Below, piece by piece: positions 553 through 4,087 of a stretch of 64,000 nt of DNA (position 1 is its first letter; the number at the start of each line of letters is the position of its first letter). Below the pieces are notes generated by a model. The model was not told where the DNA came from. It saw nothing but the letters and a program-made list of their open reading frames with translations, and made no database searches. Where the stretch lies: NCBI GenBank assembly GCA_964537895.1, contig CAZIDK010000002.1, forward strand, positions 82,684-146,683, in the 5' to 3' direction. This DNA is from an uncultured Gammaproteobacteria bacterium. Its GTDB lineage: Bacteria; Patescibacteriota; Microgenomatia; Levybacterales; UBA12049. A program made the translations under genes and the position numbers.

Positions 553-625
553 GGCGCCATCGTCTAGCGGTTAGGACACAGGGTTTTCATCCCTGTAATC
601 GTGGGTTCGAATCCCACTGGCGTCA
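553..625 (+). tRNA. tRNA-Glu (anticodon TTC)
   Basis: Cloverleaf is readable: 7 bp acceptor GGCGCCA/TGGCGTC, anticodon stem CAGGG/CCCTG, loop TTTTCAT, T-arm GGGTTCGAATCCC. CCA is not encoded. Confidence 0.85.
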
Positions 626-663
626 CTGAAACCTAATTTGACTTCTTAGCCACAATAACTCCC

Positions 664-692
664 TTGACAGTAAGCCCTTTTAGTCCTATTAT
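664..692 (+). promoter_or_regulatory. Near-consensus sigma70 promoter
   Basis: TTGACA (664-669), exact 17 bp spacer, TATTAT (687-692). Confidence 0.45.
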
Positions 693-698
693 AGGGTT

Positions 699-762
699 GT
701 GAAAATCAGATTAAATAGCAGGAAGTTTAATCACATATAGGCCGCCTTATGGCGGTTTTTTT
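699..762 (+). ncRNA. Candidate small RNA or attenuating 5' leader, about 64 nt, bounded by the promoter at 664-692 and an intrinsic terminator
   Basis: Predicted TSS is about 699. The terminator hairpin GCCGCC-TTAT-GGCGGT is followed by seven T (741-762). No convincing ORF lies inside. Confidence 0.3.
741..762 (+). terminator. Rho-independent terminator
   Basis: GC-rich 5-6 bp stem, tetraloop, T7 tract. Confidence 0.5.
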
Positions 763-791
763 GTGATAAAAGGAAGAATATGAATGAATTT

Positions 792-863
792 GCCCGCCTA
801 AGCTCACTTTAAAGCTTTTTAGAACTATTCGTTCACGCTTTAAAGAGTGCTTGGTCGGCGGGC
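792..863. promoter_or_regulatory. Long imperfect inverted repeat in the leader of the 923 gene
   Basis: Arms gcccgcctaagctcactttaaagc and gctttaaagagtgcttggtcggcgggc. Perfect 7 bp and 8 bp blocks flank an imperfect middle; the loop is about 21 nt. Confidence 0.35.
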
Positions 864-922
864 GTAAGAAATTCTAAAACTCGCAAACTTGTTAAGAATT
901 TCTAACGAAAGGAGGTGAAAAA

Positions 923-1960
923 ATGAAAAAAATTATAACATTCTTTTCTTTTCTAGCAATATCTCTTAGTCTTTTAGTCACTCCTGCCTTTGCAGATTCT
1001 CTTTCCGTAAATTTTGAAAACCCACCCTATACATTAGGAACAATAAATTTACAGGATGGATGGACAAGTACAGGAGCAGCAGGATCAGGATGCGCTGTTT
1101 ATGACCATGCAGTAAGCGCAAGCTTAAGCACTGTCGGGTTTGGATCTCAATCTTTAAGAATCTCAAACGCAGTAACTAGTGGTTGTTTTGGAGACATGAC
1201 ATTTGCCAAACCGCTTATTAACTCGGTAGGAGAAACAGGCGCAACTGCTGGAACTTTTTCGGCGGGGACAAAACAAACTCATTTCGAAATGCAGTTTGAT
1301 ATTGCTTCAGCAATACCTGGATCACAACAGCCAGGTTTGTTTATGTCGGTATCTCCAGATAGAGGAGATGGATCTCGTATGAGCTATGTTGGATTTAAAG
1401 ATGTCGCTGGCGGAATAGATATGATCTTCTATGACGTTCAGGGTACAGGTAATCCGGCAAATTTTGTTCTGACGGACTTAGGCACATACACAAGAACTCC
1501 CCATACGGTAAAACTTGTGATGGATGTAGTCGACGGTCCTTCAAATGACGTAGTTAAAGTTTATGTTGATGGCGTTCTCAAGCACACAGGGACAAGCTGG
1601 GAAAACTATTACAGATTCGATAGCGAAGCATCTGTGGAACAATCTGTAAGGATTGTTAAAACAGCAATTTTTAGAACAGGGGGAACAGCAGCGCCGGCAA
1701 CAGCGGGAAATGGTTATTTAGTAGATAACTTTTCCACGCTTTCCGGACCTGTTTTAGTTGGTCCGCCAACTAATAAAGACCAATGTAAGAAAGATGGATG
1801 GAAAACATTCAACAATCCTACATTTAAAAACCAAGGTCAGTGCATAAAATATGTGGAAAATCATAAAGATGATGACCACGATAATGACAGAGATGATCAC
1901 GGAAAAAATAATGATGATGATCATCGCGGAGAAAATGAAAATCACGGAGAACGTGATTGA
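923..1960 (+). CDS. Secreted hypothetical protein with Sec signal peptide and acidic His/Asp-rich C-terminal tail
   Basis: Strong SD aaggaggtgaaaaaATG. N-terminus is MKKIITFFSFLAISLSLLVTPAFA; the C-terminal roughly 45 aa are a D/H/N/E low-complexity tail. Confidence 0.6.
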   Translation: MKKIITFFSFLAISLSLLVTPAFADSLSVNFENPPYTLGTINLQDGWTSTGAAGSGCAVYDHAVSASLSTVGFGSQSLRISNAVTSGCFGDMTFAKPLINSVGETGATAGTFSAGTKQTHFEMQFDIASAIPGSQQPGLFMSVSPDRGDGSRMSYVGFKDVAGGIDMIFYDVQGTGNPANFVLTDLGTYTRTPHTVKLVMDVVDGPSNDVVKVYVDGVLKHTGTSWENYYRFDSEASVEQSVRIVKTAIFRTGGTAAPATAGNGYLVDNFSTLSGPVLVGPPTNKDQCKKDGWKTFNNPTFKNQGQCIKYVENHKDDDHDNDRDDHGKNNDDDHRGENENHGERD

Positions 1961-1984
1961 TAAATCCTTGGTTTAAGATTGAAA

Positions 1985-2012
1985 AACAGGCGGTTAACCC
2001 CGTCTGTTTTTT
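1985..2012 (+). terminator. Rho-independent terminator after the secreted-protein gene
   Basis: Imperfect hairpin aacaggcgg/ccccgtctgtt followed by seven T. Confidence 0.4.
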
Positions 2013-3139: not shown

Positions 3140-3168
3140 TTGACAAAGGCTATTCAGGAGTATAAAAT
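3140..3168 (+). promoter_or_regulatory. Sigma70-like promoter
   Basis: TTGACA (3140-3145), 17 bp spacer, TAAAAT (3163-3168). Two further TTGACC motifs lie just upstream (about 3111 and 3121). Confidence 0.4.
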
Positions 3169-3174
3169 GATTTT

Positions 3175-3254
3175 TACCTTCAGATACGCAAGTATCAAAA
3201 AGGCAGGAAACCTAGCAATAGGTGACCCGGAAAGACCCCGCAAGGGGTTTTTTT
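3175..3254 (+). ncRNA. Candidate small RNA or riboswitch-like leader, about 80 nt, between the promoter and an intrinsic terminator
   Basis: Ends at the hairpin ACCCCGCAAGGGGT (GCAA tetraloop) followed by a T7 tract. The only ORF inside is 19 codons and overlaps the -10 element. The next gene starts about 90 nt further downstream. Confidence 0.3.
3234..3254 (+). terminator. Rho-independent terminator with GNRA tetraloop
   Basis: Stem CCCC/GGGG, extended by A-T, then tttttttg. Confidence 0.55.
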
Positions 3255-3346
3255 GCGGCTAAAACACTTTTACCTTCATTAAGCTGAAGCTAATCTAACG
3301 ACTATAGGTTGACACAGGGAATGCATTAAGTTATAATAAAAATACT

Positions 3347-4087
3347 ATGGGCGAAAAAACAGGACATAGTCCTTCACGCAGAGAAATTCCTGCACCAATG
3401 AAGATGGATTTCAAAGATTTTGTGCAAGGAATGAATGCTTTAGGAGATCCAAGAGGCATTTTTGTCGTAGACGAAGACAAATTATTCGTCGCAAGAAGAC
3501 CGGAAACAGTAGTTCCGGGACAAGAATATAGTGTTACCAGACAATATTACAGACCATCGGACAATTTTTCCGCTCACGATCTGAAGGCCGAAATTGAACT
3601 TATTTTTGACGGTAAATCCCCGGCTCGGCTAAAACATGTTCTGTTGGAAGCTAAAAACGAGAGAGACCTCTTCAGCATTAGAGTAGGAGATGGAATAGAA
3701 ATACTCGCTGGAGTAGCAGGTTCCACGCTGGATATTAAATACAAGCCTACGGGAGAATTAGAGAGTGTTGTAATAGCCGGGCCAAACGGAGATCATCAGA
3801 AGCGTAAGTTCACCTGGCAAGCTTTAGAGAAAATGCGGATGGCAGGGGAAGAAACAGCTGCTATTTCAATTATTGCCCGTTCGGATTTTCAAAGAGCGTC
3901 TGTACCGCTTAAAATAGACCCGCATTTTTCTGAGCTGGTTTTAGTTAGTGACTTAGTGAGTAATCCTATGACCAGTAATACAAGACTTGATAGTCCTTGG
4001 ATAAATGCGAATTGGCAAGAATTGCTTCGAATTGACTGGAAACATGGTTTTAACCCCGTTAGTATTCGTGACGCCGTAAGGTTGTAA
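3347..4087 (+). CDS. Hypothetical protein
   Basis: 246 aa ORF with typical coding composition. No recognised motifs. Confidence 0.45.
   Translation: MGEKTGHSPSRREIPAPMKMDFKDFVQGMNALGDPRGIFVVDEDKLFVARRPETVVPGQEYSVTRQYYRPSDNFSAHDLKAEIELIFDGKSPARLKHVLLEAKNERDLFSIRVGDGIEILAGVAGSTLDIKYKPTGELESVVIAGPNGDHQKRKFTWQALEKMRMAGEETAAISIIARSDFQRASVPLKIDPHFSELVLVSDLVSNPMTSNTRLDSPWINANWQELLRIDWKHGFNPVSIRDAVRL

What the first reader, a model, noticed from the sequence alone, without database searches (positions are those of the whole stretch)
664..922. Promoter, short terminated transcript and long inverted repeat ahead of the secreted acidic-tail protein gene
A near-consensus promoter (TTGACA-17-TATTAT) would start transcription around 699. 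A strong intrinsic terminator follows only about 45 nt later (741-762). Next comes a 25 bp imperfect inverted repeat (792-863), and then a perfect Shine-Dalgarno and the gene at 923. The promoter-plus-terminator layout with no ORF is typical of a small RNA or of a transcription-attenuation leader (riboswitch-like) that controls the downstream surface protein. No known riboswitch consensus was recognised by eye.
Basis: seen in the sequence. Interest (0 to 1): 0.5.

Follow-up and report, generated by a model that had tools for sequence, protein, structure and literature searches.

The report
Terminator-bearing leader of a secreted lectin-like gene
A strong promoter, a tiny open reading frame and a transcription stop signal lie ahead of a secreted-protein gene in an uncultured Patescibacteria genome; relatives carry the same block ahead of the same gene, so it is probably an on/off gate for that gene, not a known riboswitch or a free-standing small RNA.

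Summary
A third hairpin (863-907) was missed.

Comparison with relatives changes the picture. The promoter/hairpin/terminator block recurs ahead of the same lectin-like secreted-protein gene in six other distinct sequences (L096, L003, L098, L019, L101, L103). Their genomic contexts differ. In four of them the T-run is followed within 8-15 nt by the SD. Any expression there must read through the terminator, so this is a cis-acting attenuator leader.

Window 768-906, which holds the long inverted repeat, is a 139-nt indel relative to L096. It is homologous to the 5' UTR of another family member (L013).

Rfam finds nothing. The hairpin loop is not conserved and no antiterminator exists, so a metabolite riboswitch is unlikely.

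The "no ORF" statement is wrong. A GTG or ATG lies exactly 7 nt after the -10 box in every leader. It opens a leaderless mini-ORF of 13 codons in four of the seven. Its stop codon lies at or within 3 nt of the terminator stem.

I propose translation-coupled antitermination. This is computational only and moderately supported.

The parts
664..692 (+). Sigma-70-type promoter, TTGACA-17-TATTAT
   Evidence: 11 of 12 matches. TTGACA and the -10 position are conserved in L096, L003, L098, L019, L101 and L103.
699..740 (+). Predicted transcription start (G699, 7 nt after the -10 box) and leaderless mini-ORF: GTG plus 12 codons plus TAG, peptide MKIRLNSRKFNHI
   Evidence: An [A/G]TG lies exactly 7 nt after the -10 box in all seven distinct leaders. 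That frame is open in every case, while the other two frames carry 1-5 stops. The start site is predicted, not measured.
709..732 (+). Hairpin 1 inside the mini-ORF: GATTAAA, 10-nt loop, TTTAATC
   Evidence: The stem is conserved in L096 and L003, but the loop differs. L019 and L101 carry a hairpin of different sequence at the same place.
739..762 (+). Intrinsic terminator: stem 739-758 with five G-C pairs, loop TTAT, T7 at 756-762
   Evidence: One of only three intergenic canonical terminators found in the 64-kb window. Conserved in all homologous leaders. L101 keeps the stem through a C-G to G-C double change.
768..906 (+). 139-nt indel relative to L096 (5' UTR module B), flanked by AAAGGA repeats at 769-774 and 908-913
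   Evidence: the L096 alignment is continuous on both sides of the gap; the 3' third (857-922) is 80% identical to L013 2931-2997; the rest is alignable but diverged.
792..863 (+).
   Evidence: -32.5 kcal/mol, z = -5.0. Single copy in the window. L013 has a hairpin of similar shape but diverged sequence at the same place.
863..907 (+). Hairpin 3, directly ahead of the SD
   Evidence: Conserved in L013 with two compensatory pair changes, G-C to A-U and U-A to C-G.
907..917 (+). Extended Shine-Dalgarno GAAAGGAGGTG
   Evidence: Identical in L096 and L013.
923..1960 (+). Controlled gene: secreted 345-aa protein with a signal peptide, a ConA/legume-lectin-like beta-sandwich and an Asp/His-rich tail
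   Evidence: ORF; 1711 homologues, no Pfam family; mean pLDDT 75; the top PDB matches are mostly lectin-fold chains, best E = 1.5e-7, TM 0.35-0.5.
1984..2012 (+). The gene's own intrinsic terminator
   Evidence: It shows that canonical hairpin-plus-T-run terminators are used at gene ends in this genome.

Best explanation
Window 664-762 is the conserved 5' leader of the secreted lectin-like protein gene. It most likely works as a transcription attenuator.

Proposed sequence of events:
1. RNA polymerase starts at G699 from a near-consensus promoter.
2. It transcribes about 40 nt that contain a hairpin (709-732).
3. It meets a strong intrinsic terminator (739-762). By default this releases an RNA of about 64 nt.
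4. The gene is expressed only from transcripts that read through.

Proposed switch (inferred): the first three transcribed bases are GTG, which opens a leaderless 13-codon mini-ORF. Its TAG stop (738-740) touches the 5' arm of the terminator. A ribosome that follows the polymerase closely and sits at or near that stop codon would cover the 5' arm. The hairpin then cannot form and transcription continues. Without coupled translation, the terminator forms. No alternative antiterminator hairpin is needed.

In this window a 139-nt indel (768-906) separates the attenuator from the SD. It carries a long hairpin and a second hairpin, and it is a 5' UTR module shared with another family member (L013). 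Its likely role is in the structure, stability or processing of the mRNA 5' end.

What is shown: the features exist; the block is conserved and linked to the gene; no other promoter is present; the ORF geometry holds.

What is inferred: the start site, actual termination, translation of the mini-ORF, and the sensed signal. My guess for the signal is translation capacity or competence for leaderless initiation.

The confidence of 0.55 is for 'cis-acting terminator-based attenuator leader of this gene'. The ribosome-coupled leaderless mechanism itself I put at about 0.35.
For: - Conservation and linkage. BLAST of window 627-922 against 82 loci encoding homologues hits L003 immediately upstream of its gene: 83% identity over window 665-789, E = 7e-30. 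L096 is about 88% identical across the block and shares the signal peptide. L098 and L099 match L003, L019 matches, and L101 and L103 have the same layout.
- Different contexts. The upstream neighbour is tRNA-Glu in the window, a methyltransferase gene in L096, ftsA-ftsZ in L003, L098 and L019, and divergently transcribed genes in L101 and L103. The block therefore travels with the gene. In L101 and L103 the terminator cannot be serving an upstream gene.
- Read-through is required. In L096, L003, L098 and L019 the T-run is followed within 8-15 nt by the SD and ATG. In the window no promoter-like site lies between 740 and 925.
- This genome uses canonical terminators. The gene's own 3' end has one, and such terminators are rare in the window: three intergenic sites in 64 kb.
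- Mini-ORF. An [A/G]TG lies exactly 7 nt after the -10 box in all seven distinct leaders and in L104. That frame is open while the other two frames carry 1-5 stops. In the window, L096, L019 and L101 it has 13 codons and the stop is 0-3 nt from the stem. In L103 the stop is in the terminator loop. In L003 and L098 it runs 30 codons through the terminator and ends in an ATGA overlap with the main start codon.
- Several long ORFs in the window have promoter hexamers 6-9 nt ahead of their ATG. This suggests leaderless translation is used here: 5 of 67 starts against a 2.45% background, P = 0.024.
- Precedent. Leaderless short ORFs starting with GUG act as attenuators in mycobacteria (bioRxiv 10.1101/834739).
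Against: - There are no transcript data. The start site, the termination and the translation of the mini-ORF are all predictions.
- ORF statistics are modest. The chance of an open frame in dinucleotide shuffles is 0.37, 0.14, 0.39, 0.42 and 0.19 for the window, L003, L019, L101 and L104. The joint value is at best about 2e-3, and the lineages are not fully independent.
- The reading frame is not conserved. One-base indels in L003/L098 and in L103 change the peptide and the stop position. The peptide sequence is not conserved between groups, and no run of regulatory codons appears.
- Most leaders start with GTG, which is a poor leaderless start codon in E. coli.
- The -10 box of L019 is weak (AACTAT). 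An alternative TATACT there would move the start site.
- The closest protein homologues (L083 87%, L085 81%, L086 77%) lack the leader. Only about 7 of roughly 100 loci have it. It is therefore dispensable for the family.
- A pattern scan of the metagenome collection found no further copies.
- The hairpin and T-run could simply be a leaky, unregulated terminator.
Confidence: 0.55

Rival explanations
1. Unregulated leaky terminator plus 5' stabilising hairpins. The hairpin and T-run insulate the strongly expressed gene from upstream read-through (tRNA-Glu, ftsZ) and fix a constant fraction of read-through. The hairpins protect the mRNA 5' end. Nothing is sensed, and the mini-ORF is a chance open frame.
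For: - No antiterminator and no conserved loop or bulge.
- 5' UTRs of this gene family are generally long and hairpin-rich, with diverse sequences, for example L085, L013 and L006.
- In the window, L096, L003, L098 and L019, a gene on the same strand upstream lacks its own terminator.
- ORF statistics are only modest.
Against: - L101 and L103 keep the promoter-terminator layout although the upstream genes are divergent.
- The start codon is placed exactly 7 nt after the -10 box in three or more independent sequence groups, and the stop lies against the stem. This model leaves both unexplained.
- A seven-T terminator with five G-C pairs directly after a near-consensus promoter is a costly way to set a constant expression level.
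Confidence: 0.22
2. Antitermination by a trans-acting factor. An RNA-binding protein, or a small RNA, binds hairpin 1 or the 5' end of the leader and suppresses the terminator. The mini-ORF plays no part.
For: - The layout promoter, hairpin, terminator, SD is the standard one for protein-dependent attenuators.
- The 5'-terminal string GTGAA[A/G]AT is conserved in the window, L096, L003, L098 and L019.
- A separate structured small-RNA-like unit lies 2.4 kb away at 3140-3257.
Against: - Hairpin 1 has entirely different sequences in L019 and in L101/L103, and its loop differs between the window and L096. That is hard to reconcile with a sequence-specific binder.
- No candidate regulator gene is linked in any of the contexts.
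Confidence: 0.1
3. Free-standing trans-acting small RNA gene of about 64 nt that merely lies upstream of the secreted-protein gene.
For: - Promoter plus terminator with no SD-led ORF.
- In this window 139 nt separate it from the SD.
- A second promoter, short RNA, terminator unit in the same window (3140-3257) shows that such units occur here.
- RNAs released by attenuators can act in trans in other bacteria (PMC6614838, listed).
Against: - It is found only ahead of this one gene family in about 615 kb of related loci and occurs only once in the window.
- It moves with the gene between contexts.
- In four sequences the terminator is 8-15 nt from the SD, so the gene has no other promoter.
- There is no conserved single-stranded seed.
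Confidence: 0.08
4. Metabolite- or ion-sensing riboswitch with a terminator as its expression platform.
For: The promoter, structured leader, terminator, SD order matches transcriptional riboswitches.
Against: - No Rfam family matches at gathering score, and nothing credible appears up to E = 10 in the window or up to E = 0.1 in ten related loci.
- Only about 40 nt precede the terminator.
- The one hairpin has a variable loop and is replaced by unrelated sequence in L019 and L101.
- No sequence can pair with either terminator arm as an antiterminator.
Confidence: 0.03

Closest known systems
E. coli pyrBI attenuator (ribosome physically blocks the terminator hairpin).
   Same: A leader ORF lies against or across an intrinsic terminator. 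Read-through depends on a ribosome following the polymerase closely enough to prevent hairpin formation. No antiterminator hairpin is required.
   Different: - pyrBI has an SD-led 44-codon leader and senses UTP through pausing in U-rich tracts.
- Here the ORF is leaderless and 13 codons long.
- No NTP-sensing tract is evident.
- The controlled gene encodes a secreted lectin-like protein, not a biosynthetic enzyme.
Leaderless short-ORF attenuators of mycobacteria (polycysteine LL-sORFs; bioRxiv 10.1101/834739)
   Same: The ORF starts at the transcript's 5' end with GUG or AUG. It sits as the first cistron ahead of the regulated gene. Ribosome occupancy of the short ORF relieves attenuation.
   Different: - The mycobacterial case is translational: the ORF region pairs with the downstream SD.
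- It senses cysteine through consecutive Cys codons.
- Here the downstream element is an intrinsic terminator.
- No SD sequestration and no amino-acid-specific codon run is seen.
Classical trp/his/leu ribosome-mediated attenuators
   Same: Promoter, short leader peptide ORF, a hairpin inside the ORF that could act as a pause hairpin, and an intrinsic terminator ahead of the structural gene.
   Different: - There are no tandem regulatory codons.
- There is no 2:3 antiterminator.
- The logic would be inverted: a ribosome at the stop codon favours read-through, not termination.
- The ORF is leaderless.
Structured 5' UTRs of abundant surface or S-layer and outer-membrane protein mRNAs, such as the ompA 5' stabiliser. 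From my own knowledge.
   Same: A long hairpin-rich 5' UTR ahead of a strongly expressed exported protein. This applies to module B (768-906) and to the UTRs of L013 and L085.
   Different: Those UTRs do not contain a promoter-proximal intrinsic terminator. A stabilising role here is untested.

Membership tests
Intrinsic (Rho-independent) terminator | G+C-rich stem, short loop, followed directly by a run of U | tested here: met
   Stem of 8 pairs with five G-C, loop of 4 nt, T7 at 756-762. The hairpin is retained in relatives, with one C-G to G-C double change in L101.
Intrinsic (Rho-independent) terminator | Transcripts actually end at the U-run | not testable with these tools
   No transcript data are available. 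Term-seq or in vitro transcription is needed.
Known riboswitch classes (Rfam) | Match to a curated covariance model | tested here: not met
   No hit at gathering score. The best hit over the leader is Trp_leader at 14.7 bits against a cut-off of 41, E = 5.1. The whole window shows only tRNAs. Ten related loci show nothing upstream of the gene.
Riboswitch (general) | Conserved ligand-binding core of unpaired nucleotides, and mutually exclusive terminator/antiterminator pairings | tested here: not met
   The loop of hairpin 1 differs: TAGCAGGAAG, TAGCATAAAA, TAGCAGGAA. The whole hairpin is replaced in L019 and L101. Folding shows no alternative partner for either terminator arm.
Ribosome-mediated transcription attenuator, trp type | Short leader ORF upstream of an intrinsic terminator | tested here: met
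   ORF of 13 codons at 699-740, with an equivalent ORF in all homologous leaders. Translation itself was not tested.
Ribosome-mediated transcription attenuator, trp type | [quoted passage not shown] | tested here: not met
   The peptides are MKIRLNSRKFNHI, MKIRLNSIKFNHI, MKIFFNVLDIFNK and MILANTFFVLDKS. No shared enriched residue appears.
Ribosome-mediated transcription attenuator, trp type | Antiterminator (2:3) hairpin competing with the terminator (3:4) | tested here: not met
   There is no complementarity between the 3' arm of hairpin 1 and the 5' arm of the terminator.
pyrBI-type coupling attenuator | The leader ORF ends at or runs across the terminator, so that a coupled ribosome occludes the hairpin | tested here: met
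   The stop codon is 0-3 nt from the stem (window, L096, L019, L101), inside the loop (L103), or beyond the terminator (L003, L098).
pyrBI-type coupling attenuator | NTP-sensitive pausing that sets the gap between polymerase and ribosome | not testable with these tools
   Needs in vitro transcription kinetics.
Leaderless mRNA / leaderless short ORF | The start codon coincides with the transcription start site | tested here: inconclusive
   [A/G]TG lies exactly 7 nt after the -10 hexamer in all leaders. Five other ORFs in the window show similar geometry. The start site is predicted only.
Trans-acting small RNA | Independent transcription unit with a conserved single-stranded seed, not tied to one neighbouring gene | tested here: not met
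   It is always adjacent to the same gene family. No other copy occurs in the window or in about 615 kb of loci. There is no conserved unpaired segment.
Mobile inverted-repeat element (MITE/REP), considered for 792-863 | Multiple copies in the genome; target-site duplication | tested here: inconclusive
   Single copy in the 64-kb window at up to 3 mismatches. The indel is flanked by AAAGGA repeats. Its homologue in L013 sits at the same place ahead of the same gene family, which argues for a UTR module. The rest of the genome was not available.

The most novel reading that the evidence does not exclude
A minimal, antiterminator-free attenuator in Patescibacteria. A leaderless GUG/AUG mini-ORF starts at the first transcribed base, and its stop codon abuts an intrinsic terminator. 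Transcription of a surface lectin-like protein gene is then licensed only when a ribosome is coupled to the polymerase. This would be a direct read-out of translational (leaderless-initiation) capacity, used by a reduced-genome episymbiont in place of protein regulators.
Probability: 0.3. Interest if true: 0.65.

Novelty: new variant of a known kind. Interest (0 to 1): 0.45.

Why it matters
Gene regulation in Candidate Phyla Radiation/Patescibacteria is almost unexplored. These organisms have few transcription factors and few recognised riboswitches.

This leader is conserved and gene-linked, and it forces all expression of a widespread secreted lectin-like protein through an intrinsic terminator. 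The protein has 1711 homologues and no Pfam family. That makes a concrete, testable case of attenuation in this group.

If the leaderless mini-ORF is translated, this would be a very compact way to couple surface-protein synthesis to ribosome availability. It would also add transcriptional attenuation to the short list of roles known for leaderless short ORFs, so far shown mainly in actinobacteria.

If instead the terminator is simply leaky, the finding is ordinary 5' UTR architecture.

Tried and rejected
- Rfam on the region (E up to 10), on the whole window (gathering score) and on ten related loci (E up to 0.1). Only tRNAs and sub-threshold noise appeared.
- Other copies of hairpin 1, the long repeat arm or the hairpin-3 arm in the window. 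None beyond chance.
- Metagenome-collection scan with GTGAAAATN{20,50}GCCGCCTTNNGGCGGTT. Seven hits, all unrelated: no promoter and different contexts.
- Viral-contig scans with the protein profile and with a leader pattern. No relatives, and two unrelated pattern hits.
- nhmmer with the six-sequence leader alignment against the window and all fetched loci (about 615 kb). No new members.
- The three closest protein homologues, L083 (with L084), L085 and L086-L088. None has the leader, so protein similarity does not predict it.
- 'The terminator belongs to the upstream tRNA-Glu or ftsZ gene'. Rejected as the general explanation because L101 and L103 have divergent upstream genes. It may still be a secondary role in the window.
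- An alternative pairing of the terminator 5' arm with the SD, seen in the L003 minimum-free-energy fold. Judged incidental, because it cannot affect the termination decision.
- The small ATG ORFs at 780 and 784 inside the indel. They are too short, the SD spacing is poor and they are not conserved. They were treated as part of the UTR module or as a decayed start-region copy.
- PDB sequence search and NCBIfam for the protein. Nothing found.

Full report
**What is in the window.**
The window comes from an uncultured Patescibacteria (CPR) genome. The downstream protein's homologues are mostly labelled Patescibacteria. Two Logan assemblies carry identical sequence.

Upstream of the finding lie a truncated mechanosensitive-channel-like gene, ending at 443, and tRNA-Glu(UUC) at 553-626. 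The tRNA has its own promoter-like site at 487-515.

- TTGACA-17-TATTAT at 664-692, 11 of 12 matches.
- A canonical intrinsic terminator, with stem 739-758 and seven T at 756-762.
- A long imperfect hairpin at 792-863, -32.5 kcal/mol, z = -5.0.
- GGAGG at 911-915 and ATG at 923.

A third hairpin at 863-907 was not listed. The whole 229-nt leader folds better than all 200 shuffles, z = -3.7. No promoter-like site, even at 8 of 12 matches, lies on the + strand between 740 and 925.

**Known RNA families.**
Rfam 15 gives only tRNA in the region and in the whole window. The best hit over the leader is far below threshold: Trp_leader at 14.7 bits against a cut-off of 41. Ten related loci also give nothing upstream of the gene.

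**The controlled gene.**
The 345-aa product has a signal peptide and an Asp/His-rich tail. It has no Pfam, NCBIfam or PDB sequence match. It has 1711 homologues. An AlphaFold model (mean pLDDT 75) is a beta-sandwich. Its top solved-structure matches are mostly legume lectins and ConA-like domains, with best E = 1.5e-7 and TM 0.35-0.5. I treat it as a secreted lectin-fold protein of unknown function.

**Comparative anatomy, the key result.**
I fetched 80 genome loci encoding homologues and 22 loci through exact-protein look-ups.

BLAST of window 627-922 hits L003 at 83% identity over window 665-789, E = 7e-30. That hit lies directly upstream of the homologous gene.

Reading the upstream regions shows the same block in L096, L003, L098 (L099 is identical), L019, L101 and L103. 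The block is TTGACA, a spacer of about 17 nt, a -10 box, six bases, [A/G]TG, a hairpin, the G+C-rich terminator hairpin with its T-run, then SD and ATG.

The contexts differ:

| Locus | Upstream neighbour |
|---|---|
| window | tRNA-Glu |
| L096 | methyltransferase gene |
| L003, L098, L019 | ftsA-ftsZ |
| L101, L103 | divergently transcribed genes |

So the block travels with the gene. In L101 and L103 it cannot be the terminator of an upstream gene.

In L096, L003, L098 and L019 the T-run is followed within 8-15 nt by the SD. There is no room for another promoter there, so every mRNA for the gene must pass the terminator. This is the main argument for a cis-acting attenuator and against a free-standing small RNA.

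The leader is not universal:
- The three closest protein homologues lack it.
- nhmmer finds no further copy in the window or in about 615 kb of related loci.
- A pattern scan of the metagenome collection gave only chance hits.

**The inverted repeat is in an indel.**
Aligned with L096, the window is continuous up to GTGAT (763-767) and again from GAAAGGAGG (907 onward). The signal-peptide coding region is nearly identical. Window 768-906 (139 nt) has no counterpart in L096. AAAGGA occurs at both junctions. The indel is therefore either an insertion with duplication or a deletion in the L096 lineage between short repeats.

The segment is homologous to the 5' UTR of another family member, L013. 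Identity is 80% over 857-922. L013 also has a long imperfect hairpin there. Hairpin 3 is kept in L013 with two compensatory pair changes, and the base of the long hairpin is kept with one.

I infer a role in mRNA 5' structure, stability or processing. About 25 bp of duplex would suit RNase III, but this is untested. It is single-copy in the window, which does not exclude a mobile origin.

**Why not a riboswitch.**
- Only about 40 nt precede the terminator.
- The loop of the single hairpin differs even between close relatives.
- In L019 and L101/L103 the whole hairpin has an unrelated sequence at the same position.
- Neither terminator arm has an alternative partner.

**The mini-ORF.**
The canonical start position, 7 nt after the -10 box, is G699. 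That G begins a GTG. It opens GTG AAA ATC AGA TTA AAT AGC AGG AAG TTT AAT CAC ATA TAG, and the TAG at 738-740 touches the terminator stem.

The same geometry holds in every leader:

| Locus | Start codon | Sense codons | Stop position |
|---|---|---|---|
| window | GTG | 13 | against the stem |
| L096 | GTG | 13 | against the stem |
| L019 | GTG | 13 | against the stem |
| L101 | ATG | 13 | 3 nt before the stem |
| L103 | ATG | 17 | in the terminator loop |
| L003, L098 | GTG | 30 | beyond the terminator, ATGA overlap with the main start |
| L104 (weaker, terminator-poor leader) | GTG | 38 | in the SD |

In all of them the other two frames carry 1-5 stops over the same span.

Shuffling gives open-frame probabilities of 0.14-0.42 per leader. 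The joint support is therefore modest, at best about 2e-3, and the lineages are not fully independent. One-base indels change the frame in two lineages. The peptide is not conserved between groups, and there are no regulatory codon runs.

Five longer ORFs in the window have good promoter hexamers 6-9 nt before their ATG. One example is the perfect TTGACA-17-TATAAT at 3309-3337 ahead of ATG 3347. That is 5 of 67 starts against a 2.45% background, P = 0.024. Leaderless translation is therefore plausible in this organism. Leaderless GUG-initiated short ORFs are shown to act as attenuators in mycobacteria (bioRxiv 10.1101/834739).

**Proposed mechanism.**
By default, termination at 762 yields an RNA of about 64 nt. 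A 70S ribosome may load on the 5'-terminal GUG and follow the polymerase. When the polymerase is on the T-run, about 25 nt downstream, that ribosome would be near the stop codon. It would cover the 5' arm of the terminator (739-746), block the hairpin and allow read-through into the gene.

Hairpin 1 inside the ORF could act as a pause hairpin that synchronises ribosome and polymerase, as in the trp leader. That step is an inference from established attenuator models.

This works like the pyrBI attenuator, by physical occlusion without an antiterminator. It differs in being leaderless, tiny, and attached to a secreted-protein gene.

My estimates:

| Reading | Probability |
|---|---|
| Cis-acting terminator-based attenuator leader | about 0.55 |
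| Ribosome-coupled version of that reading | about 0.3-0.35 |
| Unregulated leaky terminator with stabilising hairpins | about 0.2 |
| Factor-dependent antitermination | about 0.1 |
| Free-standing small RNA | below 0.1 |
| Metabolite riboswitch | about 0.03 |

**Verdict.**

In kind, this is a new variant of a known mechanism (ribosome-dependent attenuation) in a phylum where such regulation has not been described, as far as the two literature searches and my own knowledge go. All mechanistic steps beyond sequence layout and conservation are inference. Transcript end mapping and start-codon mutants would settle it.

Noticed in passing
window 3140-3257 (+), then 3309-3349: A second promoter, short RNA, terminator unit. 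TTGACA-17-TAAAAT lies at 3140-3168. It is followed by an RNA of about 80 nt with three hairpins, each capped by a GCAA tetraloop; the last is followed by a T7 run. The fold is -31.9 kcal/mol, z = -4.8, and there is no Rfam hit even at E = 1. It has no start codon at its predicted 5' end, so it is a candidate free-standing small RNA. A perfect TTGACA-17-TATAAT (3309-3337) follows, only 9 nt ahead of ATG 3347, giving a nearly leaderless gene.
   Followed up: partly
window ORF starts at 2403 (-), 3347 (+), 26782 (+), 34008 (+), 43138 (-): Long ORFs without an SD but with good -35 and -10 hexamers ending 6-9 nt before the ATG. This suggests the genome mixes strong-SD genes with leaderless genes. 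Enrichment over background is modest, P = 0.024.
   Followed up: partly
L001 2154-3716, just outside the window's left end; window 553-645: A large serine recombinase gene (Resolvase, Recombinase, Zn_ribbon_recom) lies two genes upstream of tRNA-Glu. The block shared between the window and L096 begins exactly at the 3' end of the tRNA (TCACTGAAACCTAATT), although L096 has no tRNA there. This may be a trace of tRNA-targeted integration or recombination that moved the leader and gene.
   Followed up: no
L013 about 2632-2745; L085 about 745-800; L006 about 2820-2860: Other members of the gene family have different long, hairpin-rich 5' UTRs. L013 and L085 share the string CTGACCGCNAACGGAAG about 50-85 nt after a TTGACA promoter. 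L006 and L085 share a terminator-like hairpin, CCCCTTACATCC-AGAGTTGGAA-GGATGTGAGGGG. Neither matches Rfam.
   Followed up: partly
L083 2640-2942, L097 2179-2439, L100 2166-2456, L104 1975-2322: In several relatives the lectin-like gene is preceded, 45-180 nt upstream, by a small gene (86-115 aa) with no Pfam family, in place of the attenuator leader. L006, L041, L061 and L032 have a TTGACA promoter whose -10 box is followed 7 nt later by ATGGG or GTGGG about 300 nt upstream, possibly the leaderless start of such a gene.
   Followed up: no
window 959-932 (-): An antisense promoter-like site with an extended -10 box (TTGCTA-16-TG-TATAAT, 10 of 12 matches) lies inside the first codons of the 923 gene and points back across the SD and the hairpins. 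It may be chance in A+T-rich DNA.
   Followed up: no
L101 3575-3697 and L096 3566-3687: Sub-threshold PrrB/RsmZ-like Rfam hits (29 and 26 bits against a cut-off of 44) at the 3' end of the homologous genes. They overlap the region coding for the repetitive tail and are probably spurious.
   Followed up: no
window 923-1960: The secreted protein belongs to a large family (1711 homologues) with no Pfam or NCBIfam model. It occurs across Patescibacteria and in bins labelled Chloroflexota, Acidobacteriota and Gemmatimonadota. It has a predicted ConA/legume-lectin-like fold and a conserved C-terminal Cys-containing motif ahead of a variable Asp/His-rich tail.
   Followed up: partly
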